From NCBI GenBank assembly GCA_965223735.1, contig OZ245010.1, positions 916,924-980,923 on the forward strand: DNA of 64,000 nucleotides. Direction: 5' to 3'. Source of the stretch: Candidatus Oxydemutatoraceae bacterium (GTDB taxonomy: Bacteria; Pseudomonadota; Gammaproteobacteria; Poriferisulfidales; Oxydemutatoraceae). Of the stretch, positions 18,528-61,480 are shown one piece after another. Position 1 is the first letter of the stretch, and every line of letters starts with the position of its first letter. The notes beneath the pieces are model-generated. The model saw nothing but the letters and a program-made list of their open reading frames with translations. It made no database searches and was not told the DNA's origin. The translations under genes and the position numbers were made by a program.

Positions 18528-18537
18528 AGCATGAAAT

Positions 18538-22210: not shown

Positions 22211-22289
22211 CAGAAATCCCCGACAGTTACTCTATGACATGATGCTGGTGTATGAGGGCAGAAACATACAGGACCTCCAGCCTGATTAA

Positions 22290-22565: not shown

Positions 22566-22589
22566 TAAGTATTATCAAGGTATAAAGTT

Positions 22590-40343: not shown

Positions 40344-40450
40344 ATATGGGACAAATGAGGCAGATGTTTGGCAAGCATTTGGCTGGATGTCAAATTGTCG
40401 AGTCCCCGGTGCGGGCGCCGGTCATTATAGCGAGCCAGATACGCCAGCAG
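40344..40450 (-). mobile_element. IS481-family 3'-end remnant (copy 3) abutting the RT start
   Basis: Reverse complement is ~90% identical to 24490..24590. Confidence 0.5.
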
Positions 40451-40753: not shown

Positions 40754-41196
40754 GATCGGTCGCCGTGAAAATGTAGCGATGGGTACGATCGATCAGTGTT
40801 CCACTTCAGGCGCACCACCGTATCAAACGCGATGCAGTGACCCGGATAGTCAGCACGGACCTCTTGCCCAGACGTTGCTTCTAGTAGCGACGCCGCGGCT
40901 TGATCTTCTCTTTTAGCATTAAGCAAACCGAGGCGGAACGCATCTTGTCTGGCGCCTCGCCAACGCAGTCATTGCGGTGCAGGTTGCAGCAACCAGTCAC
41001 ACGGCAACTGCTACACAACCGGGTCACCGATCATCGGCAATGGCCGGGGAAGCGGCGCACGACGACCGGCGCCGCAACCGTGTAGCTCCGATCCCGGCCG
41101 GGCATGGTTGGTGAGAGTTGGGATATCCCAATCCACTCCGTGCAGCCTCGATCCTGGCCGGGCATCCTTTGCACTAGCAGACCACAGCTACCGGCC

Positions 41197-41400
41197 GATC
41201 GCGCGATGATCAATGTCGCGACGACCTGGCGGATCTGGCAGTGACGGCGTCACCGGCCGATCGCGCGATGACCGATGTCGCGACGACTTGGCGGATCTGG
41301 CGGTGATGGCGTCACCGGCCGACCACGCGATGATCAATGTCGCGACGACCTGGCGGATCTGGCAGTGACGGCGTCACCGGCCGATCGCGCGATGGCCGAT
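41197..41400. repeat. ~63-bp tandem repeat (about 3.3 copies) derived from the purD 3' terminus
   Basis: Unit caccggccgatcgcgcgatgatcaatgtcgcgacgacctggcggatctggcagtgacggcgt repeats head to tail. The first partial copy is the real purD C-terminus (..[11 protein letters not shown]). Confidence 0.75.
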
Positions 41401-42651
41401 GTCGCGGCGGCAGAACGCCCCCGGCCAACTGATTTCCCCACAAGCGCGATAGGCGCCGGATTGAGCACCAGCAACGGTATCCGCAAGCACCGTCACGCAC
41501 AGCACGCGCCCGCCCGCAGTCACCACTTCGTCGCCGCGCATCCGCGTCCCGGCATGAAACACCTTGACCGCATCGTCGCCGACAGCATCCAGCCCGGTGA
41601 TCACCTCGCCTTTTTCATAAGCCGCCGGATAGCCCCCGGCCGCCATCACGACGCCAAGCGCCGTCCGCTCGTCCCATTCGGCGCATGCGCCGTCGAGCCT
41701 GCCGGCCAGCGCCAAGCGACAAAGTTCGACCAAGTCTGAACGTAACCGCATCAAAATAGGCTGCGCTTCAGGATCCCCCAACCGGCAATTGAACTCGAGT
41801 ACCGACGGACGCCCGGCGCCGTCGATCATCAAGCCCGCGTAAAGAAACCCGACAAACGGCGCACCTTCCTGTCTCAGGCCGTCCACCGCGGGCTGCATCA
41901 CCTCGTCCAGCACGCGCCTCTGCAAAGCATCATCCAACACCGGCGCCGGTGAATACGCGCCCATGCCGCCGGTGTTCGGCCCGCGGTCGCCTTCATCCCT
42001 CGTCTTATAATCTTGCGAAGTCGCAAGCGGCAACACGTGTTCACCGTCAACCATGCAGATGAAACTTGCTTCTTCTCCCCGCAAAAACTCCTCGACCACA
42101 ATGCGCCTGCCGGCGTCTCCGAAATCGGCACCCGAAAGCATGCCACGCGCCGCGTCGATCGCCTGCGCACGAGTATCGGCAACCACCACGCCCTTGCCAG
42201 CCGCCAAACCGTCAGCTTTAACGACCACCGGTAGTTTGCAGGTTTCAAGATAAGGTAGCGCCGCGCTTTCGGCATCGAACACCCCGAAGTCCGCGGTCGG
42301 AATGCCGTGACGACGCATGAACGCTTTGCTGAACTCCTTGGACCATTCGAGTTTTGCCGCCGCGCGCGTCGGGCCGAACACAGCGAGATCGCGTTGCTGA
42401 AAATATTCGACGATGCCCTGCGCAAGCGGCGCTTCGGGGCCGACGAGCGTCAGGTCAACGCCCTGCCGCGACGCAAAATCCCGCAATGCATCAAAGTCGA
42501 GCACGTCGAGCTCAAGATTCTCGACCCCGTCTTCACCGGCGGTTCCGGCGTTCCCCGGCGCCACATACACCTGTTCGACCGACGGGCTTTGCGCGATCTT
42601 CCATGCGAGCGCGTGCTCCCTGCCGCCGGAACCGATGACAAGCACTTCCAT
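41374..42651 (-). CDS. purD: phosphoribosylamine--glycine ligase
   Basis: [19 protein letters not shown]-terminus. Confidence 0.9.
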
Positions 42652-42662
42652 CGACGATCGCG

Positions 42663-44258
42663 TCAATGGCGAAAATGACGCACGCCGGTGAACACCATGG
42701 TGATACCGTGCTCGTCGGCGGCGGCGATCACCTTGTCGTCGTGCACCGAGCCACCGGGCTGGATCACCGCGGTCACACCCGCTTCAACAGCGGCATCAAT
42801 GCCGTCTCGGAAAGGAAAGAACGCATCGGAAGCCATCACCAACGGCTTGCCGGTAAAACCATGTTCACGCGATTTCTCAGCGGCGATTCGCACCGAATCA
42901 ACCCGGCTGGTTTGCCCGGCGCCGATGCCCGTGGTAACGGCGTCATGCGCGAAGACAATCGCGTTGGACTTGACCCATCTCACTACGCGCCAGGCAAACA
43001 GCAGATCCTCGAGTTCACTCTCCCGCGGCGGTTTTTTGGTGGCGACCGTCAGGTCTTTCGCGGTCACTTCATCGCAATCGCACGCCTGCACCAGTACGCC
43101 GCCGAGTACGCTGCGATACTCACAGCCGCCGCCCGATGATGCGGTGTAGGTGAGCACCCGCAACGCGGTTTTCTCGCCCAGAATTTTGAGTACGTCCTTC
43201 GCAACTTCGGGCACAATGACAACTTCCGCAAATTGCCTTGCAACGATCTCGCGCGCGGTTTGCGCGTCGAGCGCGCGATTGAACGCGACGATGCCGCCGA
43301 AAGCCGACGCCGGGTCAGCTTCAACGGCGCGGCGATAAGCCTGATCAGGCGAAGCCGCGCACGCCACGCCACAGGGGGTTGCGTGCTTGACGATCACACA
43401 GACCGGCGCGTCAAAACAGGCAGCACACTCACAGGCGGCGCTCGCATCGGCAATATTGTTATAAGACAGCGCCTTGCCCTGCAACTGCTCGGCGCCCGCG
43501 AGCCCGTCCCCACTGTCGGTGTAGAAAGCCGCGCGCTGGTGAGGATTCTCCCCGTAACGCAACACGGACACCCGCGCGAAAGACGGCTTGAGCGTCGCCG
43601 GCCAATCGCCGCCGGCAACAGCGGCCGGGGGATGCGCCGGCGGCCGGGCCGGTAATTGAACCGGCTGCTGCCCCAACCATTGACCGATGGCGACATCGTA
43701 CGCCGCCGTCCTTTGAAAAGCCCCGGCCGCAAGTTTCAACCGCAGTGTCCGCGATATGCCGCCGCCGTCGCGTATCTCGTGCATGATCATCTCGTAGTCC
43801 GCGGGGTCCACCACCACCGCGACGTGCTCGTGATTCTTGGACGCAGCACGGATCATCGCCGGGCCGCCGACGTCGATGTTCTCGACGCCTTCTTCAAAAG
43901 AGACACCGACCCTGCCCACCGTCCGTTCGAACGGATACAGGTTCACCACCAGCAGGTCAATCGGCTCGATGCCGTGTTCCAGCATCGCGGCACAATCCCG
44001 CTCGCCCCTGCCGAGCAATCCGCCGTGCACCTTCGGATGCAGGGTCTTGAGCCGCCCGTCCATGATCTCGGGAAATCTGGTGTAGTCCGAAACTTCGGCG
44101 ACGGCGATTTGGTGCTTGCGCAACAAGTGCGCGGTGCCGCCGGTGGACAGGATCTGCGTGCCGCGCGAGGTCAGGAATTGAGCCAGTTCGACTATCCCCG
44201 TCTTGTCCGACACGCTGAGCAACGCACGCCGGACTGGAAGTAAATCGCTTTCGCTCAT
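42663..44258 (-). CDS. purH: bifunctional AICAR transformylase/IMP cyclohydrolase
   Basis: ..ALLSVSDKTGIVELAQ.. MGS-like N-domain and a transformylase C-domain. 531 aa. Confidence 0.9.
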   Translation of the reverse strand: MSESDLLPVRRALLSVSDKTGIVELAQFLTSRGTQILSTGGTAHLLRKHQIAVAEVSDYTRFPEIMDGRLKTLHPKVHGGLLGRGERDCAAMLEHGIEPIDLLVVNLYPFERTVGRVGVSFEEGVENIDVGGPAMIRAASKNHEHVAVVVDPADYEMIMHEIRDGGGISRTLRLKLAAGAFQRTAAYDVAIGQWLGQQPVQLPARPPAHPPAAVAGGDWPATLKPSFARVSVLRYGENPHQRAAFYTDSGDGLAGAEQLQGKALSYNNIADASAACECAACFDAPVCVIVKHATPCGVACAASPDQAYRRAVEADPASAFGGIVAFNRALDAQTAREIVARQFAEVVIVPEVAKDVLKILGEKTALRVLTYTASSGGGCEYRSVLGGVLVQACDCDEVTAKDLTVATKKPPRESELEDLLFAWRVVRWVKSNAIVFAHDAVTTGIGAGQTSRVDSVRIAAEKSREHGFTGKPLVMASDAFFPFRDGIDAAVEAGVTAVIQPGGSVHDDKVIAAADEHGITMVFTGVRHFRH

Positions 44259-45340: not shown

Positions 45341-45850
45341 ATGAAAATCATCAGCGGCGGACAAAGCGGCGTGGATCGCGGCGCGCTCGACGCCGCACGC
45401 ACGCTTGGTCTTGATTACGGCGGCTGGTGCCCGCGCGGCGGCCTCGCCGAAGATCATCCCGCGCCACCCGGCCTGCTCGCGGACTATCCGGCGCTTGAGG
45501 AAACCCCCTCGTCCGACTACCTGCAACGCACCGAGTGGAACGTGCGCGACGCAACGGCCACCTTGATCATCGCGCCGAACGCGGAACGCGCCGGGAGCGA
45601 CGGCACCGGCTACACGCTGGACTGCATCCGGAAGCACCGCAAAGACCACTGCATCGTGTTGCTCGACGACCCCGACCACCGCCGCAAGGCGCTCGAATGG
45701 CTCGCGCGCCTGGATGACGACGCGATCCTGAACGTCGCGGGGCCGCGCGAAAGCAAAGCACCGGACATCGGCCGACAGACACGTGAACTGCTGTGCGACC
45801 TGCTGCGCAATTTGTCGGTGAGCGTGCCCGGCGGAACACCCGGCGGGTAG
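45341..45850 (+). CDS. putative molybdenum-cofactor carrier / SLOG-family protein
   Basis: IISGGQSGVDRGALDAA...GGWCPRG...QRTEWNVRDA pattern. Confidence 0.5.
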   Translation: MKIISGGQSGVDRGALDAARTLGLDYGGWCPRGGLAEDHPAPPGLLADYPALEETPSSDYLQRTEWNVRDATATLIIAPNAERAGSDGTGYTLDCIRKHRKDHCIVLLDDPDHRRKALEWLARLDDDAILNVAGPRESKAPDIGRQTRELLCDLLRNLSVSVPGGTPGG

Positions 45851-45924
<74 letters not shown>

Positions 45925-46165
45925 CCGAATAGGAACGCATAGTTTACCAGCCTCAAAGAGTTAAGTATCACCCTTCATTATCTTCGCCATCGCGCCCGTA
46001 AAGGCTTTGTCATGCTCAACTCGCCGAATTGTTCCCAGCCTTCCGCAATAAATTGTTGGGGGCCAAAATCCATTCGGATTGCAGACGGATCACACGGCGA
46101 GCCAGTCAGTACCTCACAAATCAGGCGTTCCAAGTTACGTTCAGAAATGTCAGCAGGCGATGGCG

Positions 46166-46694
46166 TTATGGGGGTTGCCAACCAAAACTTGCCTTCAGTT
46201 CTCGAAGCATTTCAAATGTACTGACACACGGAACGTGAAATTGTCTGCATACATTGGGCAACGAGATACATCTTTGGGCATCAGGCGTGTATGCTTCCTG
46301 TGTTACCACGGTATGCCCATACACCTTGGCATAAGCGGCAAGCCAACCATCCGCTTTATCAGCAAACTCTGCTTTTGCATCGTCTTTGAATTGTCCGTGC
46401 CCAATAACCCATCGCATTATTTGTTTAAAAACATCATTAACTTCCGGGGGATCGGTTGGTTGAAAAAATGAATCAGATAATGCCGCCCATGTTCTCAGAT
46501 TTTCAGCCACGTTCTCCGGTATGTTTCCCGCAAGGACCTCTCCACGAACCCTGTTGATACTTACCACTCGTTCAGTTTAGTGATAAAAAATCAAACATTC
46601 CCAAAAACCGGGGGCAGAGGTCAAACGCATAGTAACGACGGCACGCTTCTATAAAAACATTGGCATCAAGTACATAAATTGGCGCCTGGTTCAT
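46166..46694 (-). pseudogene. DUF4411-family (PIN-like) toxin-type gene, frameshifted
   Basis: N-terminus MNQAPIYVLDANVFIEACRRYYAFDLCP (DUF4411 start) from the ATG at 46694. Frame is lost at homopolymer runs (ccccc, ttttt) near 46575-46600. C-terminal part ..ADGWLAAYAKVYGHTVVTQE..LPNVCRQFHVPCVSTFEMLRELKASF lies in another frame (listed ORF 46166..46567). Confidence 0.55.
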
Positions 46695-46699
46695 TGTAT

Positions 46700-47848
46700 T
46701 TAAAGATTGATGCGCCGCGCAAACTCGTCAAAAGTTGCACCTTTCATTCCAGTCAAAGAATAAGCGTCCTGATAAAGCAATCTCCCCTCTTTTGTAGCGC
46801 GCACGATCGCGCTACCGAACCGACGCCCAACGCGCACATTCTGATTGTTCCAAAAATCCCCGCCGCTGCGCGTTTTCCGTCCTTTTTGCTGAATGTTGTC
46901 CCGGTATCCACGGTAGAACTCAATAAACTCCGTGCGGCTGATCAAACCAATATCCAGTAGTCTGCGAGCGATGACCAAAGAACTGACTTTGAATTGGCGG
47001 GCAAGAAATTGATATGCATTCCCACTCCGTTCAGCTTCTTGCCACAATTGATGCAACTTATCGGTCGGCACCAGAAATTCAGCTGCAACTTGGTCGCAAA
47101 ATCTTTCTTCAGCAGCTTCAGTCGGCAGCAAGTTGTCAAAATTGGACACTCCCTCTTGCCCAAGCCAGAGATGCGCCATCTCATGCGCAAACGTGAACAT
47201 CTGCGCGCCTTTGAAATCGGCATTGTTGATGAAGATCAGCGGCGCATAACTATCGCCCAAGGCAAAGCCTTGAAACTCTTCTACGTCCAGTTTTCGGCGT
47301 GTGTTGTTGCCCACCACACCATTGATCATGACCAGAATGCCTGCGTCTTCGGCGTCTTGACGCAGGCTTCGCAAGGCATCAGACCAAGACTCTTGTTGTC
47401 GCGCCCAACTATCGTCAACCCTCAAAACGGCACGCATGTCAACTGCCACTTGTTCCGGTTGGCTGTTCAAAGTGGCATTACCTACAAAACCCAGAGGATC
47501 TGCACCTTCCTCAACCAGATATTCCTTCATCCACGCTTGCCTGCGTTGCATTGTGTGCACTGTGTCCAGCAGATCAGGGCTTGGGCGTTGCAATGGAGCA
47601 TTGCCCACGGTGCGAAAATCAGGAATCGACAACCTGTCCTCAAGCGGTTCACGCAAGTACAAATAGCCCAACGGCGTGTGAGTATGATGAGCCAGATTTT
47701 CAACCTGCTTCACGCTCAACTCACCGCGTTGCTCCCACTCAAAAACACGCTTCGGCTTTACCCCCACTTTTTTGGCCAGATCCGCTTCACTCAGGTACGC
47801 GCGCGCTCGCGCCCATTTCAGTACAGACGGTTGCAGGGAAATATTCAT
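46700..47848 (-). CDS. XRE-family HTH fused to ImmA/IrrE-family metallopeptidase
   Basis: N-terminal HTH (..LAKKVGVKPKRVFEWE..) and HEXXH site FTFAHEMAHLWLG. Confidence 0.8.
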   Translation of the reverse strand: MNISLQPSVLKWARARAYLSEADLAKKVGVKPKRVFEWEQRGELSVKQVENLAHHTHTPLGYLYLREPLEDRLSIPDFRTVGNAPLQRPSPDLLDTVHTMQRRQAWMKEYLVEEGADPLGFVGNATLNSQPEQVAVDMRAVLRVDDSWARQQESWSDALRSLRQDAEDAGILVMINGVVGNNTRRKLDVEEFQGFALGDSYAPLIFINNADFKGAQMFTFAHEMAHLWLGQEGVSNFDNLLPTEAAEERFCDQVAAEFLVPTDKLHQLWQEAERSGNAYQFLARQFKVSSLVIARRLLDIGLISRTEFIEFYRGYRDNIQQKGRKTRSGGDFWNNQNVRVGRRFGSAIVRATKEGRLLYQDAYSLTGMKGATFDEFARRINL

Positions 47849-47875
47849 GGCACGGTCACTTTATTCCAGCAGAAC

Positions 47876-48376
47876 TCACGTTAGTGCGTCGCAAGAACCA
47901 GCCATATTTTCTGCGGCTGGCGCACCGCCCAGTTCATAAATAAACACCTGCACATCCGTCAGTTGCTCCATCGCAGATTCAATGCATAGCCTGACTTCAT
48001 CCCAGTCCAGGCCGCCCAATCCGCAACCCAAAGGCGGAATTGCGACTGAACGAATATCATTCACCCGAATGGTTCTGACCAAGTCCTTGAAGCCCGATTC
48101 AATATCGCTTATACGGGTCTTGCCACGCCAATGCCTTTTGGTGGGAAAGTTGATGATGTAATAAGGACAGGTCAACCAACCGGTTTCATACACGAACATT
48201 TGTCCGGGTTGAACTTTCTCCCGCCTGCAAGCCGTTGCATACGCTTTGAAGTTGTCCGGGTAAGATTTTTTGAACTGCAATGCAATGCCGCGCCCCATGA
48301 CGCCAACGCAATTGACTGTGTTCACAAGCGCCTCGGTATCGGCTTTGAGGATGTCACCAGTGGTTAATTCAAGCAT
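47876..48376 (-). CDS. macro-domain (ADP-ribose-binding/processing) protein
   Basis: DTEALVNTVNCVGVMGRGIALQF...SVAIPPLGCGLGGLD macro fold motifs. 166 aa. Confidence 0.75.
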   Translation of the reverse strand: MLELTTGDILKADTEALVNTVNCVGVMGRGIALQFKKSYPDNFKAYATACRREKVQPGQMFVYETGWLTCPYYIINFPTKRHWRGKTRISDIESGFKDLVRTIRVNDIRSVAIPPLGCGLGGLDWDEVRLCIESAMEQLTDVQVFIYELGGAPAAENMAGSCDALT

Positions 48377-48389
48377 GGATGCCTCTTGC

Positions 48390-48734
48390 TTAGTAATACC
48401 AATCTGGTTTTATTGCAAAGCGCGGGGCACGTTCGCTCGTCGCCAATGCATCTGATACCTGATTATAGACTGCCCGTACACAAACCCTGATAGGCATGAC
48501 CGACCAAGGGCAAAAATAAAACGGCACGCAATCACCTACACGCAAGTTCGGATGACTGGTCAATCCCTTTTGTAACCATCGGCGTTTAATGTGGTTCAAG
48601 CCGATGGTTGTACCAGGTAAACCGCACCGGACCACCTCGGCGTCACACCACAAAAATCCACTTGCAATAATCGACGGCAGTCAGTTTATATGAACGATGT
48701 GATAGATTTTCGGTTGCCCTAGGATAGCATTCAT
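48390..48734 (-). pseudogene. DarT-like (DUF4433) ssDNA ADP-ribosyltransferase toxin remnant with in-frame TGA and apparent internal deletion
   Basis: MNAILGQPKIYHIVHIN-TGA-LPSIIASGFLWCDAEVV...GDCVPFYFCPWSVMP...DWYY*. KIYHIVHIN.LPSI and VPFYF match, as far as I recall, the conserved DarT N-terminal motifs. Only ~114 codons. Confidence 0.4.
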
Positions 48735-48803
48735 GTACTGCCAAAGGAATGAAAAGCAGAATCATGCATTATATTCTTTTCATTACCGACCAATAAGCAA
48801 CGT

Positions 48804-49433
48804 ATGACTGATCTCGAAAAAACAGCCCAAACTCCGACTCCAGTTGATAGTTCAAAGTTCAACACTCATTGCGAGTTGCCTTACGGCTTGGAAACAGATC
48901 ATATAGCTCAGGCGATGAAAGAGTTCATCGATTTTCTTGGGTTCCTTAATCAACAGCTAAGTACGAAAGGATTGCCACGGCTCGAAAGCTTTCTGATGCC
49001 CGCTAATTTTAGCGGCATTGTCGGTGAATTCATGAATCTCAGAATTCCTGAACATTGTCTCGGGTTAGTGAAAAATCAGTACCATAATGGCCACCCGGAT
49101 TTAATTCCGTCCGGTCATTTTCCCGATGATGCAGTTCAATATTCAGACGAGGGGGTAGAAATTAAAGGCTCGCGCCGTTCGAGTGGATGGCAGGGCCACA
49201 ACCCGGAGGCTGTATGGTTAATGGTGTTTCATTTTGATAGCAATACATCTAATGACGAGCATAAGAAAATTCCACCAAAACCGTTTCAATTCAAGGGCGT
49301 ATATGCTGCAAAACTTGAAAGTGACGATTGGTCATTTTCAGGACGGTCTGCAACCAGCCGACGGACAATAACCGCGAGCGTGAAACACAGCGGCGTTACA
49401 AAAATGAAGAATAACTGGGTGTATAAGTTCTAA
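48804..49433 (+). CDS. candidate Type II restriction endonuclease (PD-(D/E)xK)
   Basis: GHPDLIP...DEGVEIKGS (PD...ExK). AT-rich and convergent with the MTase below, overlapping it by 4 bp. Confidence 0.4.
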   Translation: MTDLEKTAQTPTPVDSSKFNTHCELPYGLETDHIAQAMKEFIDFLGFLNQQLSTKGLPRLESFLMPANFSGIVGEFMNLRIPEHCLGLVKNQYHNGHPDLIPSGHFPDDAVQYSDEGVEIKGSRRSSGWQGHNPEAVWLMVFHFDSNTSNDEHKKIPPKPFQFKGVYAAKLESDDWSFSGRSATSRRTITASVKHSGVTKMKNNWVYKF

Positions 49434-50368
49434 GCCAATGATAGATACTGCTGAGATTCAAATTCACTCGGTTGCGCCAGCCTTGGTATAGCGCTCTCTG
49501 CGAGCTCATAATAATCACGATACCTCTCAATACCGATACACGAGTAACCAATAGATTCAGCGGCGGCCACGGTTGAACCTGAGCCCATGAACGGATCTAT
49601 AACCACGCCCTCACCCAGCGGGAGCGACGCATAAACGATCTGCCTGAGAAATGACTGGGGTTTAAGGCTCGGGTGGTCTGCTATCCCACGTTCTTCCTGA
49701 GGTGTACGCTCGCTGTATATAACGTCCTCAAACGGATTGCCGTCAGGTTTTCGGCGAAGACCGCCTGTCTGAAAAGTTGCAAGGCAGTCGCTGACCTTCA
49801 TGTTTTTGGGCAACGGCTTTCTGAAGATGCCCCATGGTTCATAGCATCCGCGTGGCATTGAACAAACACCAGAATATTGTTCTTCGGCGTTCTTTGGGCG
49901 GTCGCCACCCCTCAATGTTCGCACGACTCGTATTACGTTCCCGCGATATTCAAGCCCTGAATCCGAAATTGCTGAAAAAATCAATTGAGACAAGAATGAA
50001 TTTGAGGCGACGAATACATGCCCCCCTGGACGAACTGCACGAAATGCGGCCCGTGCCCATTCAAAGAAGAATCTCTTCAGCGAAGCACGTTCTTTTTCAT
50101 TCAGCGCCGTAAACCGTGGCAAAGGAGACCGGGCGCTTCCATCAAATGACGGGGGGAGACGCCAAATTCCGCCATGTCCATTGGCGCGTTTCTCCAGTTG
50201 GTCAAAATCATATTCTTTAACCCCGTATGGGGGATCTGTCACAATGCCATGGACGCTATTTTCGGCGATCCTGCCAAACCACTCCAGACAGTCGGCATGC
50301 ACAATCAAAGAGTTACCAACCATTCTGGATGGATAATCCAAAGAGAAGGAATTTAACTGGCTGCCCAT
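49430..50368 (-). CDS. beta-class amino DNA methyltransferase (N4-C/N6-A)
   Basis: IVTDPPYG (motif IV) and DPFMGSGSTVAAA (motif I). Start set at the internal Met because the listed ORF (to 50503) reads into the IS481-like remnant. Confidence 0.7.
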   Translation of the reverse strand: MGSQLNSFSLDYPSRMVGNSLIVHADCLEWFGRIAENSVHGIVTDPPYGVKEYDFDQLEKRANGHGGIWRLPPSFDGSARSPLPRFTALNEKERASLKRFFFEWARAAFRAVRPGGHVFVASNSFLSQLIFSAISDSGLEYRGNVIRVVRTLRGGDRPKNAEEQYSGVCSMPRGCYEPWGIFRKPLPKNMKVSDCLATFQTGGLRRKPDGNPFEDVIYSERTPQEERGIADHPSLKPQSFLRQIVYASLPLGEGVVIDPFMGSGSTVAAAESIGYSCIGIERYRDYYELAESAIPRLAQPSEFESQQYLSLA

Positions 50369-50454
50369 TCTGGATTCTTGGTTTCGGTTGAAATACCAAT
50401 GGTGATTAAAAGTAGCGCATTCTAGGAGATAAAGCAACCTGTCATTTCCGACCC

Positions 50455-50520
50455 ACCACATTACTGAAACGAACGAGGCAGATGTCTTGCAAGCATCCGG
50501 CAAGGTCTCAGCTTGTCGAA
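50455..50520 (-). mobile_element. IS481-family 3'-end remnant (copy 4, more diverged) upstream of the MTase
   Basis: gaggcagatgtcttgcaagcatccggc resembles gaggcagatgtttggcaagcatttggc at 40365. Confidence 0.35.
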
Positions 50521-50702
50521 TCCCCGACGCAGTCGCCGACTGTTAAAGCGGTACATCCAATCCATGCGAGTGACCGGCAGATGCTCGTTGAACCCCCACA
50601 GGTCATCAATCCACACCATCAAATAGTGTATAATCGCGCCGCCGGACGCGGATAACTCAACCAGCTCTCAATCAATTCCTGCATCCAGACCACGCAGACG
50701 CC

Positions 50703-52708: not shown

Positions 52709-52995
52709 CGCGACACTCCACAGCGCAGATGATGGCGCGGGGAAGATCACCGCCGGGCGCCACCGCGACGAACGGCGGTTGCCATCCGATGAACGGCGGA
52801 GAGTTCAGCCGGATGCACGACACCGGCCCGACGCTGACCGGGGCGCAAGATGAAAGCACAAGTGGTGAACGGCCTCGCTTTGCTCAGTTCAACGCCGACC
52901 CGGGCCGCAAGATGAAAGAACGATTCAACCCGTCGTGTTCCGCGACAACCACCGGCTTGCCGCGGTTCAGCCTGTGCGCAAGATGAAAAAACGTT

Positions 52996-53247
52996 TCAGT
53001 CCGGTGTGTTCCGGTCCTGATCGAGCAGCCGCTCCAACTCGGCGACGCGCTTGCGCAGCCGCTCGAGCAGCGCCACCTGAATGTCATATTCTTCGCGGCT
53101 CACGAGATTCATCTTGTGTAGCAGAGGCTCGATCCCCGCACGCAAATGGTCGGCGAGTTCCTCGCGCAGACTGGAGAACGCGGGCGGCAGTTGTCGCACC
53201 AACTGCCGGATGAATTCCTCGATCTTTTCCCGCTCGCCTCTTTTCAT
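52996..53247 (-). CDS. ubiK: ubiquinone biosynthesis accessory factor UbiK (BMFP/YqiC family)
   Basis: 83-aa coiled-coil protein, ..NLVSREEYDIQVALLERLRKRVAELE.. Confidence 0.65.
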   Translation of the reverse strand: MKRGEREKIEEFIRQLVRQLPPAFSSLREELADHLRAGIEPLLHKMNLVSREEYDIQVALLERLRKRVAELERLLDQDRNTPD

Positions 53248-53265: not shown

Positions 53266-54348
53266 TCAGGCGTCCGCCGCACTGCTCAGAGCACCGGTGT
53301 TCTCGCGGCGATCGGCAAAGGCGATCATCCTCTCGGTCGCACGCAGGGCGCACAAACGCACCTCCTCCGGCACTTGTACCTCATTGTCCAGACGATCGAG
53401 CACCGCCTCGAGATTGTGCAGGCCGTTCATCGCCATCCACGGGCAATGCGCGCAACTGCGGCAGGTCGCCCCTTCGCCCTGGGTCGGTGCCTCAATGAAC
53501 TCCTTGTCCGGCGCGATCTGTTTCATCTTGTAGAAGATCCGGTTGTCGGTCGCCACAATAAACCGCCGGTTCGGCAACCGTCTGACTGCCTGTATCAAGG
53601 TGCTGGTCGAACCGACCGCGTCGGCGATGTCGATCACGGCGGCGGGCGATTCGGGATGCACCAGCACCGCCGCATCGGGATAACGCGCCTTGAGGTCAAG
53701 CACACCGCGATATTTGAATTCCTCATGCACCACACAACTGCCCGGCCAGATCGTCATGTCGGCGCCGGTGACTTTTTGCAGATAATTGCCGAGGTAGCGG
53801 TCAGGCGCCCACAAGATCCTGCGCCCCTGATCCATCAGGTGACAGATCACTTCAACCGCAATGCTCGATGTCACCACCCAGTCCGAGCGCGCTTTGACCT
53901 CGGCGCTGGTATTGGCATACACGACGACGACGTGATCGGGGTGGGCGTCGCAAAATTTTGCAAACTCGTCGGCGGGGCAGCTGAGATCCAAAGAGCAAGT
54001 CGCCGCGAGCGTCGGCATCAGAACCCGCTTTTCCGGACTCAGTATCTTCGCGGTCTCTCCCATGAAACGCACGCCCGCAACGACCAGCGTGGAAGCATCA
54101 ACCCGATGACCGAAACGCGCCATCTCCAAGGAATCGGACACCATGCCGCCGGTCTCCTCGGCCAGACGCTGAATGTTCTCGTCGGTGTAGTAATGAGCGA
54201 CCAGCGCCGCATCGAGCGCCTTCAACTTGCGCCCGATACGCTCCATCCTCTCCCGTCGCTCGTCGTCGCCATACACGGGCGTCAACGCGCAAATGTCGGC
54301 GGTGACGGGCGCCCGTATTTCGGGAATATGAACCGTTTGTGCAGTCAT
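53266..54348 (-). CDS. nadA: quinolinate synthase A
   Basis: 360 aa with an iron-sulfur cysteine motif (..[16 protein letters not shown]..). Confidence 0.9.
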
Positions 54349-54407
54349 CCCGTCATTATAAACCGGGTATGGATAAGCGGCGGACGCCCAATAGATGGCC
54401 GACCGGT

Positions 54408-54490
54408 CTGCCGCGCGTCATCGGTCAAAAACGCGAATGCCGGCCGACGAGTCAACTTCTCCGATCACGCAGGCCTGACCGCAACCGTCG
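54408..54490 (-). repeat. 83-bp duplicate of the selD 3' terminus (copy of 56815..56897)
   Basis: catcggtcaaaaacgcga[a/t]gccggccgacgagtcaacttctccgatcacgcaggcctg[g/a]ccgcaaccgtcgtgcctgaa. 81 of 83 positions match the real selD end. Confidence 0.8.
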
Positions 54491-54835
54491 TGCCTGAAAA
54501 TAGACGCCTTCAACGAATACTTGACCAAATGCCCGCAAAACACCCGCCCCGTTTGTCTCATAAATATGGTGATCGCAAACAAAAACTTGCCTGGATCAGA
54601 AGGGGCGTTTATTCTCTAAAATACAATTAAAGAAAATCGCCATCTCTAAAAATCCAAGCAATCTATGACGGAAATGAAAAAAATGAAAAAGTCCAACCAA
54701 CCACTCGCAGAGGTTTTTGGACATTGGCCGACAGATTTCAGCTCGAAAGCGGTACGTTTCCGGAAAAATTAACTCTGCCCATTTAACAACAAAGTCCCAA
54801 GTTGCACAAAAGACAAAGTTAACAACCCACTTGGT

Positions 54836-55567
54836 GTGTGCAGCGTACTGCATGGAAAGAGCCCTGTAATCACCTGCCCTGTAAGATTCCGTGAAAACTG
54901 GATTATTGCAGATGATGCAGCAAATTTCTTCTTTGGTTCTGACACAACATGGACATCGCTCACAGAGGCAAGGTTAACTGATTACTACGGAAACTCTGCT
55001 GGGAATGTTGATGTAGTCCTGGTGGCTTATGACGATGCAGGAAAAATTTATGATCTCGGGGCACTTGAAATTCAAGCGGTTCATATCTCAGGAAATGTAA
55101 GAAAACCATTTGCTTTCTATATGAGTGATTGCCGCAAGAACGCGACAATGAATTGGTTTGATCAGCCAAACTATCCAAGACCGGACTTTCTATCCTCACC
55201 GAGAAAGAGGCTTGCTCCGCAACTCATGTTCAAGGGCGGTATTTTGCACGCCTGGAATAAGAAAATAGCTGTGGCTTTGGACTCGTCTTTTTTCAAAACT
55301 CTCCCAAACTTAGATGAGACCGATCAGACTGAAGCAGATATCGCATGGCTGATTTATGATCTTATCTCTTCGAGTAACAACTTAAGTTATGAGCTTCAGA
55401 GAACCAGAGTGATATACACTAAGTTTACTAAAGCCCTGAACACCATAACAAAACCGAAGATTGGAAAGATAGAGAGCTTCATGAAGTTACTTCAATCAAA
55501 GGCAGATAAAAAGTTAGAGAGTCTTCCTGCCGACAATACCATTGAGACCTCCTTTGGAGGAGGGTAA
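54836..55567 (+). CDS. hypothetical protein, candidate Type II restriction endonuclease partner of the Dam-like MTase
   Basis: AT-rich 243-aa ORF immediately upstream of, and overlapping, the MTase. Weak D..D..E.Q pattern only. Confidence 0.3.
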   Translation: MCSVLHGKSPVITCPVRFRENWIIADDAANFFFGSDTTWTSLTEARLTDYYGNSAGNVDVVLVAYDDAGKIYDLGALEIQAVHISGNVRKPFAFYMSDCRKNATMNWFDQPNYPRPDFLSSPRKRLAPQLMFKGGILHAWNKKIAVALDSSFFKTLPNLDETDQTEADIAWLIYDLISSSNNLSYELQRTRVIYTKFTKALNTITKPKIGKIESFMKLLQSKADKKLESLPADNTIETSFGGG

Positions 55568-56534
55568 TATGCAGAGACCACTTTTCAGTGATGAACCTGA
55601 ACCTTTGAGAGTGGTGAATGTAGCCTCTGTTCCACAGCGTAGCCCATTTCGCTATCCGGGAGGCAAAACATGGTTTATCCCAAGGCTGCGTGAATGGCTC
55701 CTCAGCCAACCTTCAAAACCAAAAGTATTGATTGAACCATTTGTCGGCGGTGGGATTGTGTCGCTGACAGCGGTGTTTGAAAATCTGTCAGATAAAGTTC
55801 TTATGGTTGATCTGGACGAAGAAATTGCGGCAGTCTGGCAAACCATAGTTGATGGTGAGGCAGAATGGCTTGCAAGAAAAATTCTTTCTTTTGAAATGAC
55901 GAAAGACAACGTCATCGCCGAGCTCCAAAAAAAAAGGAGAACTCAGAGAGAAAAGGCATTTCAAACGATAATAAAAAACAGAACATTCCATGGCGGCATC
56001 CTGGCATCAGGCTCAGGCTTTGTAAAAAACGGGGAAAATGGGAAAGGTATTCTTTCGAGATGGTATCCGGGCACACTTGCAAAGAGACTGAGAAATATCA
56101 ATCAAGTGGTCGGGAAGATTCAATTCAAGCAGGGTGATGCTTTCGAGACCATTGATCAATACAAGAATATTCCTGAAACGGTGTTTTTCATCGACCCGCC
56201 ATATACAGCCGGTGGCAAAAAAGCGGGTAGCCGTTTATACACACACTTTGAATTGGATCATAAAGCCTTATTTGGATTATGCACTTCAATCAAGGGGGAT
56301 TTGATAATGACCTGCGATAATACAACCGAGGTTAAGGAGCTGTCCATACAACATGGATTTCAAGCTAAACCCATCTCAATGAAAAACACCCACCATGCTG
56401 CAATGACCGAGCTGGTCGTTGGAAAGAACCTGGATTGGATGCGAGGAATTGATAGGGTGCTTGAAGAACAAGCTCTGTACCAAACCGGAAAAGGAAAGAA
56501 CCCACCACAGCAAAATGATCAAGCTCCCGGGTGA
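55542..56534 (+). CDS. alpha-class (Dam-like) N6-adenine DNA methyltransferase
   Basis: N-terminal motif I EPFVGGG and C-terminal motif IV FIDPPYT. AT-rich. Confidence 0.75.
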   Translation: MRPPLEEGNMQRPLFSDEPEPLRVVNVASVPQRSPFRYPGGKTWFIPRLREWLLSQPSKPKVLIEPFVGGGIVSLTAVFENLSDKVLMVDLDEEIAAVWQTIVDGEAEWLARKILSFEMTKDNVIAELQKKRRTQREKAFQTIIKNRTFHGGILASGSGFVKNGENGKGILSRWYPGTLAKRLRNINQVVGKIQFKQGDAFETIDQYKNIPETVFFIDPPYTAGGKKAGSRLYTHFELDHKALFGLCTSIKGDLIMTCDNTTEVKELSIQHGFQAKPISMKNTHHAAMTELVVGKNLDWMRGIDRVLEEQALYQTGKGKNPPQQNDQAPG

Positions 56535-56817
56535 GACTATTCCAGGCCTTTGACCAAGCGCTCGTCAGAGTGATCGCCTGTATCAAAGACCCGGAGGTTG
56601 TAGATCGGGTGTCGGAGCATCTCGAACAGCGAGCCGGATCACTGTTAACGCGACCTGTTCCGACCCGGCCCTGCCACGGGTCACCAGACCGGATGGATTC
56701 TTAACGTCAGCATTAACACAATACCCCATCCGCGTGATCAGGCGCGCAGGCGACGAGCAGACCGTCATTGATCTACGGATCACAAAGCAGATTGATCGTC
56801 TCTTCTCCGTCGGCTCG

Positions 56818-57858
56818 TCATCGGTCAAAAACGCGAACGCCGGCCGACGAGTCAACTTCTCCGATCACGCAGGCCTGGCCGCAACCGTCGTGCCTGAACA
56901 AGTCCAATACCCGGTCCGCATGATCAGGCGCACAGGCGACGAGCAGACCGCCGTTGGTCTGCGGATCGCAAAGCAGATTGATCGTTCCTTCCCCGACCGG
57001 GCCCTGAAAATCCACGCGCCGTATATAACTGTCGCGGTTGCGTCGCGCGGCGCCGACGATGCCCCCTCCGAGCAACACCCGCGCCGCCCCGATGACCGGC
57101 ACCTGCCGCCGGTACAGCACTGCGCCGACACCTTCGCACATCCCGAGCAAATGCCCGAGCAGACCGTAACCCGTCACGTCGGTCATCGCGTGAACACCGT
57201 CGCAGGCACCGAGTTTTTCGCCGGTCGAGTTCAACAGAGTCGCCCAATGCAACATCTCGCGGTAGGCCTCTTGCGGGACGGCGCCGCGTCTGACCGCGGC
57301 GGCAACGACACCGATACCGAGCGGCTTGCTGAGAACAAGCACATCACCTTTCCGCGCGCCGACGTTCCTCTTGATCCGCCGGGGATGTATGTCGCCGATG
57401 ACGGCGAGACCGTAAATCGGCTCGACCGAATCAATTGAATGTCCACCGGCAATGACGATGCACGCCTGCCCGCACGCACGCCGTCCGCCCTTCAGAACGC
57501 CGGCGATGGCGGCGGGCGGCACCTTGTCCACCGGCATTCCGATGATATTCAGCGCAAACAAAGGCCTCGCCCCCATCGCATAAACGTCGGAGACGGCATT
57601 CGCGGCGGCGATGCGACCAAAGTCTTCCGGAGAGTCAACGATGGGCGTAAAGAAATCCGTCGTCGCGACCAGCGCACGTTCGTCACTCAGCGCAAATACC
57701 GCGGCGTCGTCTCTGGTGTCGTTGCCGACCAGCAGGTGCTCAACCGCGGCGTCGGCAGTCACGCTTTCGAGTAGATCGGCAAGCAGTGAGGGCGCCATTT
57801 TGCAACCGCAGCCGCCGCCGTGAGACAATGCCGTCAATTTGACGGATCCGTTTGACAT
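56818..57858 (-). CDS. selD: selenide, water dikinase (selenophosphate synthetase), Cys type
   Basis: SHGGGCGCK active-site motif and AIR-synthase-like fold. Start at MSNGSVK. Confidence 0.85.
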   Translation of the reverse strand: MSNGSVKLTALSHGGGCGCKMAPSLLADLLESVTADAAVEHLLVGNDTRDDAAVFALSDERALVATTDFFTPIVDSPEDFGRIAAANAVSDVYAMGARPLFALNIIGMPVDKVPPAAIAGVLKGGRRACGQACIVIAGGHSIDSVEPIYGLAVIGDIHPRRIKRNVGARKGDVLVLSKPLGIGVVAAAVRRGAVPQEAYREMLHWATLLNSTGEKLGACDGVHAMTDVTGYGLLGHLLGMCEGVGAVLYRRQVPVIGAARVLLGGGIVGAARRNRDSYIRRVDFQGPVGEGTINLLCDPQTNGGLLVACAPDHADRVLDLFRHDGCGQACVIGEVDSSAGVRVFDR

Positions 57859-57881
57859 ACTGAACAAAAGCGCCCGAAAGG

Positions 57882-58916
57882 ATGTGGACACTAACACAAA
57901 TTGATCAATTTGAAGAGATCATCGACGTGCGCTCGCCCGCCGAATATGACAGAGACCATATCCCCGGCGCGCACAATTTTCCGGTTCTGAACGACGAGCA
58001 GCGCTCGAAAATCGGCGCCGTTTATAAGCGAATTTCTTCTTTCGAGGCGAAAAAACGCGGCGCGGCGCTGGTTGCAGATAACATCTCAAAACACCTGCAA
58101 ACGCATTTTCACGACCGCGGCGGCGACTGGCGTCCGCTTGTTTACTGCTGGCGCGGCGGCATGCGCAGCGCCGCCTTTGTTCACGTGCTGCGCGAAATCG
58201 GATGGCGCGCCGAACAGCTACCCGGCGGCTACAAAGCGTACCGCAAAACGGTGATGCAGATGCTGACGGAACTCGCACCGCAATTTCAGTTCAAGGTGCT
58301 GTGCGGATGCACCGGCACCGGCAAAAGCCTGCTGCTGGCGAGCCTCGCCGAACACGGCGCCCAGACCGTCGATCTTGAAGCGCTCGCCAACCATCGTGGT
58401 TCGGTGCTCGGCGCACCGGTATCGAGTGAACAACCTTCGCAAAAGCGTTTTGAAAGCCTGCTGTGCCGAACCTTGCGCGGCCTCGACCCGCAGTTGCCGG
58501 TATATATTGAGGCGGAAAGCCGACGTATCGGCAAGATCCAGGTCCCGACCGCCCTGCTCAAAAAGATGCGCACAGCGGAATGCGTGCGTATCGAGGCCGA
58601 CGTCGGCGCACGCGCCGAGTTTCTGATGTCGGAATACCGGCATTTTCTGGAAGACGACGAGTTGCTCAGCAATGCGCTGCAAACGCTGACGCGCTATGCG
58701 GGAAAAAGCAAAGTCGAAGACTGGATCAACTGGCGCAAAACGGGCGGCGCGGAAAACCTGGTGCACGATCTGTTACAGACGTATTACGACCCGTTGTATC
58801 TGCGCTCGATGCAAAGGCATTTCAGCGGTTACGCCGACGCCGTACCTGTGCATCTGGATGCAATCAACGCCGATACGCTGAACCGCGCGGCGAAAACGTT
58901 GGCGGGGCGATCGTAG
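57882..58916 (+). CDS. selU: tRNA 2-selenouridine synthase
   Basis: Rhodanese N-domain (..YCWRGGMRSAAF..) and P-loop (GCTGTGKS). Divergent from selD. Confidence 0.8.
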   Translation: MWTLTQIDQFEEIIDVRSPAEYDRDHIPGAHNFPVLNDEQRSKIGAVYKRISSFEAKKRGAALVADNISKHLQTHFHDRGGDWRPLVYCWRGGMRSAAFVHVLREIGWRAEQLPGGYKAYRKTVMQMLTELAPQFQFKVLCGCTGTGKSLLLASLAEHGAQTVDLEALANHRGSVLGAPVSSEQPSQKRFESLLCRTLRGLDPQLPVYIEAESRRIGKIQVPTALLKKMRTAECVRIEADVGARAEFLMSEYRHFLEDDELLSNALQTLTRYAGKSKVEDWINWRKTGGAENLVHDLLQTYYDPLYLRSMQRHFSGYADAVPVHLDAINADTLNRAAKTLAGRS

Positions 58917-61349: not shown

Positions 61350-61480
61350 TGAACCTGATATAACGGCCTTTGGGAACGGGGCTGCCGGACGTGGAGGCGG
61401 CGAGGTTACCCGGCCCGTGAAGCGTCAAATGGATACTTCGGCTTGCGCCCCTGTGGCACGAGCGAAGTATATTGTTTCCA
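61350..61480 (+). mobile_element. solo copy of IS605-family tnpB 3' end + right end (omega-RNA-like module)
   Basis: About 80% identical to 18440..18590 (..ggaggyggcg..gtgaagc.t.aaatgg.ta.ttcggcttgcgccc.tgtg.c..gagc.aagtatatt). No tnpB body. Confidence 0.45.

What the first reader, a model, noticed from the sequence alone, without database searches (positions are those of the whole stretch)
54408..56897. Dam-like R-M module bracketed by duplicated selD 3'-end sequences
The last 83 bp of selD (56815..56897, encoding ..FRHDGCGQACVIGEVDSSAGVRVFDR*) recur with 2 mismatches at 54408..54490. An ~85-bp copy of the preceding selD segment (56913..57000) sits immediately after the selD stop (56727..56812). 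Between the two downstream copies lies an AT-rich pair: a 243-aa hypothetical (possible REase) and an alpha-class Dam-like MTase (FVGGG...DPPY). This arrangement (gene-X-Y-stop-X'-[cargo]-Y') looks like the scar of a site-specific insertion into the selD 3' end, or a tandem duplication later split by cargo insertion. No recombinase is left.
Basis: seen in the sequence. Interest (0 to 1): 0.6.

Follow-up and report, generated by a model that had tools for sequence, protein, structure and literature searches.

The report
Restriction-modification genes inside duplicated selD end
A small piece of foreign DNA carrying a restriction-modification gene pair (the restriction gene now dead) sits between selD and nadA inside a duplicated copy of the selD 3' end; this is a known, integrase-free way for such genes to enter genomes, so the finding is real but fairly ordinary.

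Summary
The repeats are real. Y' (54413-54498) matches Y (56813-56898) over 86 nt at 97%. X' (56719-56809) matches X (56905-56995) over 91 nt at 87%, offset 186 nt. Neither has any other copy in the window.

Relatives (SelD 65-73% identical) have selD followed by nadA, after about 60 nt in three contexts and 371 nt in a fourth, with no duplicate. Y' plus its 64-nt spacer is therefore the ancestral junction.

The 42% GC cargo is a conserved Type II operon:
- The REase gene is NotI-family (54665-55567) and is dead. An in-frame TAA at 54770-54772 replaces a Lys codon of an 80%-identical intact 297-aa homologue.
- The D12/Dam-like m6A MTase gene (55569-56534) is intact.

A 62-nt vestige of an IS481-family transposase 3' end lies at 54523-54584. 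No integrase is present.

The structure is a 186-bp head-to-tail duplication of the selD end, with the cargo splitting the spare downstream copy. This fits "R-M insertion with long target duplication" (Furuta 2010). X' appears older than Y', which I could not explain.

Verdict: a new member of a known kind, of low to moderate interest.

The parts
53266..54348 (-). nadA (quinolinate synthase), the gene that directly follows selD in relatives
   Evidence: PF02445, E 1e-100. The order selU(-)/selD/nadA/BMFP/comM is conserved in L083-L087.
54349..54412 (-). Ancestral selD-nadA intergenic spacer (64 nt). It ends in GGTTTATAATG, as in relatives.
   Evidence: Relatives have 58-63 nt spacers ending in GGTTTATAATG or CTTATACT just before the nadA start.
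54413..54498 (-). Y': displaced copy of the last 81 nt of selD plus 5 nt, in the ancestral position next to the spacer and nadA
   Evidence: 86 nt, 97% identical to 56813-56898. The differences are V->I, one synonymous change and one change after the stop.
54499..54595 (+). Left spacer of the insert. It is not shared with other copies of the R-M unit. It contains a vestige of the 3' end of an IS481-family element at 54523-54584, pointing towards the REase gene.
   Evidence: R-M homology to L090 starts at 54596. nhmmer with a profile of five other window copies gives E 1.8e-7. The longer copies match NF033577 (IS481 transposase), E 1e-17.
54665..55567 (+). NotI-family Type II restriction endonuclease pseudogene. 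In-frame TAA at 54770-54772 (codon 36).
   Evidence: PF12183, E 1.8e-55, covering profile positions 3-238 of 238 across the stop. 80% identical over 296 aa to an intact 297-aa homologue that has Lys at that codon. There is only one stop in the frame.
55569..56534 (+). D12-class (Dam-like, alpha) N6-adenine DNA methyltransferase. Intact, so now a solitary MTase.
   Evidence: PF02086 and TIGR00571. FVGGG and DPPY motifs and all invariant columns are kept against six homologues. An identical protein is present in the databases.
56535..56718 (+). Right spacer of the insert (GC about 0.58), origin unknown. 56564-56668 weakly resembles the C-terminal tail of IS91-family transposases.
   Evidence: No nucleotide match in any locus or elsewhere in the window. 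tblastn against plasmids gives E 0.06-0.5, all hits to IS91/ISVsa3 tails. Pairwise identity is 43% over 35 aa. There were zero hits among 1.84 billion representative proteins and zero in NCBIfam.
56719..56809 (-). X': decayed copy of the selD segment that precedes Y. It has an in-frame TAG at 56773-56775.
   Evidence: 91 nt, 87% identical to 56905-56995, offset 186. 11 of 12 differences are transitions. At least 5 changes are derived in X', and at 3 sites X' keeps the outgroup base.
56810..56812 (.). Head-to-tail junction (TCG) between X' and Y. At most 2-3 nt of microhomology.
   Evidence: Read directly from the sequence. No homology extends across the junction.
56813..56898 (-). Y: the functional 3' end of selD (last 27 codons including the stop, plus 5 nt)
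56899..56904 (-). CAAGTC: the 6 nt of selD between Y and X that are absent from both X' and Y'. This marks the cargo insertion point in the spare copy.
   Evidence: Repeat edges.
56905..56995 (-). X: the functional selD segment that was copied to give X'
56818..57897 (-). selD (selenide, water dikinase), intact
   Evidence: PF00586 and PF02769. 100% identical to the database protein P0001. Closest other relatives are 65-73% identical.

Best explanation
A 186-bp head-to-tail duplication of the selD 3' end has its downstream, redundant copy split by about 2.2 kb of foreign AT-rich DNA.

The insert contains, in order:
- a vestige of an IS481-family element end;
- a NotI-family restriction endonuclease gene;
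- a Dam-like m6A methyltransferase gene;
- 184 nt of unknown origin.

Most likely history:
1. An illegitimate unequal exchange, with at most 2-3 nt of microhomology, duplicated the last ~185 nt of selD. This left an intact gene followed by a spare copy, X'-Y'.
2. The foreign segment, probably travelling next to an IS481-family element, was joined into the spare copy between X' and Y', with 6 nt lost.

The net result is an R-M unit flanked by an 86-bp 'long target duplication'. Nothing is broken. selD keeps its own end, and nadA keeps its ancestral upstream region (Y' plus the 64-nt spacer). No integrase is involved.

While the endonuclease was active, post-segregational killing would have opposed loop-out through the 86-bp repeats. 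Later an AAA->TAA mutation killed the endonuclease and left a solitary methyltransferase.

Shown here: the anatomy, the foreign origin of the cargo, the pseudogene, and the empty site in relatives.

Inferred: the order of the two steps, the role of the IS481 element, and the addiction phase.
For: - Repeat geometry: X' abuts Y, offset 186. Y' and X' have complementary inner edges. Y' lies next to the ancestral spacer.
- Relatives have a single selD end. It is followed by nadA after 58-63 nt in three contexts and 371 nt in L087, and there is no selD fragment downstream.
- The cargo GC is 0.42 against 0.60 in the flanks.
- The same R->M pair, 1 nt apart, occurs in unrelated genomes and on a Thermus plasmid. 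It is found in about 75 of 80 metagenome loci, and the REase is intact in 59 of the 64 loci where it is fully covered (including three non-metagenome loci, L088-L090).
- The REase has a nonsense codon at a conserved Lys. The MTase is intact.
- There is no integrase. The only mobility trace is the IS481 3'-end vestige.
- All criteria of Furuta et al. 2010 for 'insertion with long target duplication' are met: R and M both inside the insert, insert under 20 kb, duplication over 30 bp, no mobility gene (PMC2853133).
- In the same R-M family, 4-5 of 43 loci with both flanks show direct repeats on either side of the pair, against one locus with inverted repeats.
Against: - X'/X differ at 12 of 91 nt, while Y'/Y differ at only 3 of 86 (Fisher p = 0.03). 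X' keeps ancestral bases at 3 sites where the functional X has changed. The two halves of the supposed single duplication therefore do not look the same age. Gene conversion of Y', or selection on Y' as nadA upstream sequence, has to be invoked and was not tested.
- No short target-site duplication or IS terminus marks the cargo edges, so the way the cargo was joined is unknown.
- No close relative (over 75% SelD identity) was available to show an intermediate state.
Confidence: 0.5

Rival explanations
1. Insertion first, then rescue. The cargo first inserted between X and Y of a selD allele, in this lineage or a close relative, and disrupted the gene. A molecule carrying X'-cargo-Y was then joined to an intact selD in one of two ways: one homologous crossover in Y plus one illegitimate joint (Campbell-type integration of a circle), or homology-facilitated illegitimate recombination after DNA uptake. 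This regenerates an intact selD and creates the 86-bp duplication in one step.
For: It gives exactly the observed order X-Y-X'-cargo-Y'. It explains why X' carries ancestral bases and more decay than Y': X' is an older, or foreign-allele, passenger, whereas Y/Y' are remade at integration. Furuta et al. propose a cycle of insertion with long duplication, amplification and release for R-M units.
Against: It needs more steps, including a tolerated selD knockout. If the donor's X was about 10% diverged, its Y should be too, so the 97% Y/Y' identity still needs mismatch correction. No disrupted-selD relative or circle junction was found. The Logan contig ends are explained by k-mers shared between the repeats.
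Confidence: 0.27
2. One complex replication-based event. A template-switching, microhomology-mediated break-induced replication copied selD to 5 nt past its stop, jumped back to the start of X, copied X, jumped into foreign DNA, then returned to the start of Y. All three junctions would have been made at once.
For: There are three novel junctions with little or no microhomology, and the edges of X' and Y' are complementary.
Against: X' and Y' would be the same age, which is at odds with 87% against 97% identity. Foreign DNA would have to be available as a replication template. The idea is not testable from a single genome.
Confidence: 0.1
3. A degenerate integrase-type genomic island. Y and Y' would be attL/attR cores of an element that targets the selD 3' end and has since lost its integrase and most of its genes.
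For: Direct repeats made from the 3' end of a gene flank foreign low-GC DNA.
Against: There is no integrase or integrase remnant in 54499-56812. X', a copy of chromosomal sequence upstream of the core, sits inside the 'island' directly against attL, which att recombination does not produce. The same R-M pair elsewhere is not next to integrases in the loci inspected.
Confidence: 0.07
4. Assembly artefact or a chimeric contig.
For: Repeats can cause mis-joins.
Against: Independent short-read contigs from two runs are 100% identical across Y'-cargo and cargo-X'-Y, and across nadA-Y'. Y and Y' differ at 3 positions, so they are distinct loci.
Confidence: 0.02

Closest known systems
Insertion of restriction-modification gene units with long target duplication (Nobusato et al. 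2000, cited as ref. 37 in Furuta, Abe & Kobayashi 2010, PMC2853133)
   Same: R and M genes form a short, compositionally foreign insert with no mobility gene. The insert is flanked by direct repeats over 30 bp (here 86 bp) that correspond to a single-copy sequence at the empty locus of other genomes.
   Different: An extra 91-nt copy of the adjacent upstream target segment (X') lies between the intact target and the cargo. The cargo therefore sits inside the second copy of a 186-bp duplication, not at its edge, and the two halves differ in apparent age. The empty site is known only from distant relatives.
Solitary (orphan) Dam-like methyltransferases derived from decayed Type II R-M systems
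   Same: An intact D12-class MTase sits next to an inactivated REase gene. The same decay is seen in homologous loci L088, L089, L114, L147 and L160.
   Different: Here the REase is only one nonsense codon away from intact, so the loss is recent. The specificity is unknown.
Homology-assisted capture of circular or linear DNA that creates partial duplications. Examples are ISCR1 complex class 1 integrons with a duplicated 3'-CS, and homology-facilitated illegitimate recombination (de Vries & Wackernagel 2002). Both are cited from my own knowledge.
   Same: One homologous crossover plus one illegitimate joint leaves the cargo flanked by a long direct duplication of the target. A weak IS91-like tail and an IS481 vestige lie in the insert.
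   Different: No intact rolling-circle or DDE transposase is present, no ori/ter ends can be recognised, and the IS91 similarity is not statistically supported.
Integrase-mediated islands inserted in the 3' ends of genes (tRNA or protein genes), with att direct repeats
   Same: Direct repeats derived from a gene's 3' end bracket foreign DNA.
   Different: There is no recombinase. The X' fragment and a third junction are not expected from att recombination.

Membership tests
R-M insertion with long target duplication (criteria of Furuta et al. 2010) | Both an R and an M gene homologue lie within the inserted sequence | tested here: met
   PF12183 NotI-family REase (pseudogene) and PF02086 MTase between the repeats.
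R-M insertion with long target duplication (criteria of Furuta et al. 2010) | Insert shorter than 20 kb and target duplication longer than 30 bp | tested here: met
   The insert is 2314 nt (54499-56812, including X'). The repeat is 86 nt at 97%.
R-M insertion with long target duplication (criteria of Furuta et al. 2010) | The repeated sequence aligns to a single copy at the empty locus of a comparison genome | tested here: met
   L083-L087 have one selD 3' end followed by nadA, after 58-63 nt (L083-L086) or 371 nt (L087), with no selD fragment downstream. Caveat: these relatives are only 65-73% identical in SelD. No same-species genome was available.
R-M insertion with long target duplication (criteria of Furuta et al. 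2010) | No other mobile element or mobility gene is responsible | tested here: inconclusive
   There is no intact mobility gene. However, a 62-nt IS481-family 3'-end vestige lies at 54523-54584, and a weak IS91-like tail lies at 56564-56668.
Type II R-M system (NotI-family REase + D12-class m6A MTase operon) | REase and MTase domains are adjacent in a conserved R->M order | tested here: met
   The REase lies directly upstream of the MTase in about 75 of 80 homologous metagenome loci.
Type II R-M system (NotI-family REase + D12-class m6A MTase operon) | Intact REase reading frame | tested here: not met
   TAA at codon 36 (54770-54772), where an 80%-identical 297-aa homologue has Lys. Restarting at GTG 54836 would remove the N-terminal CPFNNKVPSC segment.
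Type II R-M system (NotI-family REase + D12-class m6A MTase operon) | MTase catalytic motifs (FxGxG, DPPY) present and frame intact | tested here: met
   Alignment A1: all invariant columns are retained.
Type II R-M system (NotI-family REase + D12-class m6A MTase operon) | Recognition sequence and enzymatic activity | not testable with these tools
   Needs methylome data or biochemistry. There is no sequence-level PDB match for the REase.
Integrase-type genomic island with att repeats | Tyrosine or serine recombinase gene, or its remnant, inside the element | tested here: not met
   The ORF list and the Pfam and NCBIfam scans of the insert show none.
Integrase-type genomic island with att repeats | Only two novel junctions, with the att core as the sole duplicated sequence | tested here: not met
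   There are three novel junctions. X' duplicates sequence upstream of the core and abuts Y.
IS481-family insertion sequence or transposition unit | Transposase gene, terminal inverted repeats and a short target-site duplication | tested here: not met
   Only the last ~62 nt survive. No duplication or homology is found at the cargo edges.
IS91/ISCR rolling-circle element | HUH-Y2 transposase and an oriIS end next to a GTTC/CTTG target | tested here: not met
   Only a 35-aa similarity at 43% identity to the transposase tail. It is not significant database-wide. Only 14 nt lie between its stop and X'.
Simple tandem duplication | Head-to-tail copies with a constant period and one novel junction | tested here: met
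   The X'-to-X offset is 186. X' is separated from Y by 3 nt. The second unit is interrupted by the cargo.

The most novel reading that the evidence does not exclude
The 2.4-kb unit (X' + cargo + one Y) could be a recombinase-free, homology-armed mobile R-M element. It would loop out through the 86-bp selD repeats and re-enter intact selD genes of related cells by a single homologous crossover. X' would be a fossil of the selD allele in which the unit was first assembled. This would be sequence-level evidence for the 'insert, amplify, release' life cycle that Kobayashi's group proposed for R-M units but never observed.
Probability: 0.1. Interest if true: 0.55.

Novelty: new member of a known kind. 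Interest (0 to 1): 0.28.

Why it matters
This is a clean case of how a restriction-modification operon can settle in a compact genome (the source contig is about 1.85 Mb) without a recombinase and without breaking the tightly packed selD-nadA junction. The overlapping end of the target is duplicated, so both neighbours stay whole.

The three-junction anatomy and the unequal decay of the two duplicated pieces add some mechanistic detail to the poorly understood 'long target duplication' mode of R-M insertion.

It also documents a very recent step from R-M system to solitary methyltransferase, by a single nonsense codon.

None of this changes current understanding.

Tried and rejected
1. Hidden longer homology. 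I tested for a decayed X'' to the right of Y' and a decayed Y'' to the left of X'. Local and anchored alignments scored no better than shuffles or random window segments. Rejected.

2. IS91/ISCR remnant in the right spacer. tblastn hits were only to IS91-family transposase tails, at E 0.06-0.5, with 43% identity over 35 aa pairwise. There were no hits in NCBIfam or among 1.84 billion representative proteins. The expected GTTC/CTTG-adjacent end is absent. I kept this only as a weak lead.

3. Site-specific att island. No recombinase is present and X' is in the wrong place. Rejected as the main reading.

4. The other long direct repeats in the window are different things, not further cases of the same mechanism:
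- 8796-9297 / 14933-15431 / 7282-7397 belong to a diversity-generating retroelement.
- 22294-22560 / 24216-24588 are IS481-derived miniature elements.

5. Known RNA or structure in Y' and the spacer (for example a nadA-type riboswitch). There were no Rfam hits at E <= 0.4, and the fold z-score was 0.15.

6. Promoter and terminator scan of 54200-57100. Nothing above the shuffle expectation.

7. Close relatives or the source genome:
- Exact look-ups of SelD found nothing.
- The genome-contig scan gave at most 54% identity.
- An exact 30-mer from Y had no match in JGI metagenomes.

8. Phage origin. No match in the phage collection. The one plasmid match is a Thermus brockianus plasmid carrying the same gene pair.

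9. Circular form from Logan contig L081. Its ends are explained by the 39-nt stretch that is identical in Y and Y', so it is not evidence for a circle.
Full report
OBSERVATION

selD lies on the minus strand at 56818-57897, and nadA lies on the minus strand at 53266-54348. Repeat finding over 53500-58500 and over the whole window recovers two direct repeats.
- Y (56813-56898) is the last 81 nt of selD, including the stop, plus 5 nt beyond it. It matches Y' (54413-54498) over 86 nt with 3 mismatches, at an offset of 2400.
- X (56905-56995) matches X' (56719-56809) over 91 nt with 12 mismatches, at an offset of 186.

BLAST of the selD 3' end against all 64 kb finds only these two copies (E 2e-36 and 4e-27). 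Everything else is at E >= 0.45.

Local and anchored alignments beyond all four repeat edges are no better than shuffles or random window segments, so the edges are sharp. The 6 nt CAAGTC (56899-56904) that separates Y from X in selD is the only sequence missing from both copies. X' and Y' are therefore the two halves of one X-Y unit, cut at one point.

Read in the selD direction, the order is: selD body, X, Y (with the stop), 3 nt, X', 184-nt spacer, MTase gene (antisense), REase gene (antisense), 97-nt spacer, Y', 64-nt spacer, nadA.

Short-read Logan contigs from two runs are 100% identical across Y'-cargo, cargo-X'-Y and nadA-Y'. They break only inside the 39-nt stretch that Y and Y' share. 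The arrangement is therefore not an assembly artefact, and these contigs are not evidence for a circular form.

THE EMPTY SITE

No close relative of the source genome was reachable. The exact SelD look-ups failed. The species-representative genome scan gave at most 54% identity. A 30-mer from Y has no exact match in JGI metagenomes.

The protein search found SelD relatives at 65-73% identity on large contigs. Their contexts share the order priA, argS, SPOR, selU(-), selD, nadA, BMFP ... comM with the window.

In those relatives the selD stop is 58-63 nt from the nadA start; in L087 the gap is 371 nt. The spacer ends in GGTTTATAATG or a close variant, exactly like the 64 nt to the left of Y' in the window. 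None of the relatives has any selD fragment downstream of selD.

Y' plus its spacer is thus the ancestral selD-nadA junction. The window has gained 2400 nt relative to that state.

THE CARGO

GC falls from about 0.60 to about 0.42 between 54500 and 56500.

Restriction endonuclease gene:
- The '243-aa hypothetical' is a NotI-family restriction endonuclease (PF12183, E 1.8e-55). The profile match runs through an in-frame stop.
- The real frame starts at ATG 54665 and has a single TAA at 54770-54772.
- An intact 297-aa homologue (L090) is 80% identical over 296 residues and has Lys at that codon. The REase gene is therefore a one-mutation pseudogene.
- A restart at GTG 54836 would remove the conserved N-terminal Cys-containing segment.

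Methyltransferase gene:
- The MTase (55569-56534) is D12 class (PF02086, TIGR00571).
- It keeps every column that is invariant among six homologues, including FVGGG and DPPY.

Conservation of the gene pair:
- The pair, in R-then-M order and 1 nt apart, is a conserved unit. It recurs at 66-84% nucleotide identity in unrelated genomes (L088-L091).
- It also occurs on a Thermus brockianus plasmid, annotated 'NotI family restriction endonuclease | DNA adenine methylase'.
- It is found in about 75 of 80 metagenome loci retrieved with the MTase.
- The REase is intact in 59 of the 64 loci where it is fully covered (these include L088-L090) and broken in 5. Decay to a solitary MTase is therefore recurrent.

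Nucleotide homology to those copies covers only about 54596-56499. The 97-nt left spacer and the ~219 nt from the end of that homology to X' (the MTase tail plus the 184-nt right spacer) are specific to this locus.

TRACES OF MOBILITY GENES

No integrase or intact transposase is present.

The left spacer contains, at 54523-54584 and pointing towards the REase gene, a 62-nt match to a ~110-nt sequence with five other copies in the window. The match has E 1.8e-7 against a profile built from those five copies. The longer copies encode the C-terminal part of an IS481-family transposase (NF033577, E 1e-17).

The right spacer has a 57-codon ORF. Residues 12-46 resemble the tail of IS91/ISVsa3 transposases at 43% identity. 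This similarity is not significant database-wide, and I treat it only as a lead.

HOW IT AROSE

The sequence shows three novel junctions: Y|X', X'|spacer and spacer|Y'. A simple insertion or att recombination makes only two. X' also lies on the wrong side of Y to be part of an attP-like mimic of the selD end. Together with the lack of a recombinase, this argues against the site-specific reading.

The topology is exactly a 186-bp head-to-tail duplication of the selD end, with at most 2-3 nt of microhomology at its junction, in which the downstream spare copy carries the cargo.

The locus meets the published operational criteria for 'insertion of R-M genes with long target duplication': R and M inside the insert, insert under 20 kb, duplication over 30 bp, no mobility gene, and repeats that are single-copy at the empty locus (Furuta et al. 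2010, PMC2853133). That paper reports such insertions for all R-M types in many bacteria, with the mechanism unknown.

In the present R-M family, 4-5 of 43 loci with both flanks also have direct repeats on either side of the pair, against one with inverted repeats. I could not show that those repeats are target duplications.

WHAT REMAINS UNEXPLAINED

X'/X differ at 12 of 91 nt and Y'/Y at 3 of 86 (Fisher p = 0.03). I polarised the X/X' differences with three outgroup selD genes:
- X' has at least 5 derived changes, including Gln->TAG at 56773-56775.
- X' keeps the outgroup base at 3 sites where the functional X has changed.

The X/X' split is therefore not very recent, and Y/Y' look younger. 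Three explanations are possible:
- Y' was homogenised by gene conversion.
- Y' is constrained as nadA upstream sequence.
- X' is an older, or foreign-allele, passenger, and Y/Y' were remade by a later homologous crossover (a Campbell-type integration of an X'-cargo-Y circle, or homology-facilitated illegitimate recombination).

I rank the scenarios as follows:
- duplication first: 0.5;
- insertion first followed by rescue: 0.27;
- a single template-switching event: 0.1;
- a decayed integrase island: 0.07;
- an artefact: 0.02.

WHAT IT DOES NOW

The locus most likely provides only adenine methylation at an unknown motif. The endonuclease is dead.

The arrangement leaves selD and the nadA upstream region intact. 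It can in principle revert precisely to the ancestral state by recombination between Y and Y'.

While the endonuclease was active, post-segregational killing (established for Type II R-M systems; cited from my own knowledge) would have opposed that loss. This step is inferred, not shown.

VERDICT

The finding is real and well delimited. It is an instance of a known kind of R-M-linked rearrangement, with a small structural twist and an unresolved order of events. Interest is low to moderate.

Noticed in passing
window 7282-15895: A probable diversity-generating retroelement. It comprises a reverse transcriptase (7302-8405, minus strand) and two FGE-sulfatase/C-type-lectin-fold target genes (8874-10334 and 15011-15895, minus strand). 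The 3' ends of the target genes repeat each other (8796-9297 vs 14933-15431, 87-99%). A 116-nt third copy at 7282-7397 (79-83%) looks like the template repeat. A low-GC 1520-aa repeat protein (10250-14812, built of ~75-nt repeats) lies between the two targets.
   Followed up: partly
window 54523-54584, 22457-22566, 24484-24597, 40322-40433(-), 50447-50551(-), 6483-6575(-): Six copies of the 3' end of an IS481-family element, all remnants. The copy at 40.3-40.9 kb retains about 600 nt of the transposase gene. Four of the six lie directly upstream of foreign low-GC genes, in the same orientation as those genes: two MTase units, a reverse transcriptase, and the NotI-like R-M pair. This could reflect IS-linked gene capture or outward promoters.
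   Followed up: partly
window 21022-24600: A second decayed R-M island. It holds a frameshifted N6_N4 MTase (21022-22210, minus strand), an intact N6_N4 MTase (22590-23651) and an N-terminally truncated MjaI-family REase fragment (23642-23965, minus strand). The latter two are flanked by two direct copies of an IS481-derived miniature element (22294-22560 and 24216-24588, 89-91% identical).
   Followed up: partly
window 38193-40343: A low-GC 716-aa reverse-transcriptase protein (PF00078) immediately downstream of an IS481 remnant. A ResIII/DEAD helicase-like 842-aa ORF lies next to it (35496-38024). This may be a defence-associated RT.
   Followed up: no
window 45850-50550: A low-GC region starting at tRNA-Arg (45850-45924). 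It contains an HTH plus peptidase-M78 (IrrE-like) gene (46700-47848), a 209-aa ORF with no Pfam match (48804-49433) and a convergent N6_N4 MTase (49430-50503). Relatives lack this MTase at the position after the cytochrome c gene (L084, L087).
   Followed up: no
window 41190-41409: Three and a half tandem copies of a 62-nt GC-rich unit. They overlap the called 3' end of, and extend just downstream of, the 430-aa minus-strand ORF 41374-42666.
   Followed up: no
window 18519-18586 and 61412-61479; 52906-52942 and 52977-53013: A 68-nt direct repeat (82% identical) with copies 43 kb apart, and a 37-nt repeat with copies 71 nt apart between comM and the BMFP gene. Neither is explained.
   Followed up: no
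L138 3795-4064 and 5990-6406; L117/L118 (L118 913-1498 and 4634-5219): In other metagenome loci the same R-M pair is flanked by long non-coding direct repeats (97-574 nt, 89-98% identical). In L138 the two repeat blocks are in swapped order on the two sides of the pair.
   Followed up: partly
L089 (same 1.94-Mb contig as relative L087): A relative of the host carries a 67%-identical homologue of this MTase elsewhere in its genome. The REase upstream of it has a stop. It lies next to IS3-family transposase genes and a BsoBI-type R-M pair.
   Followed up: no
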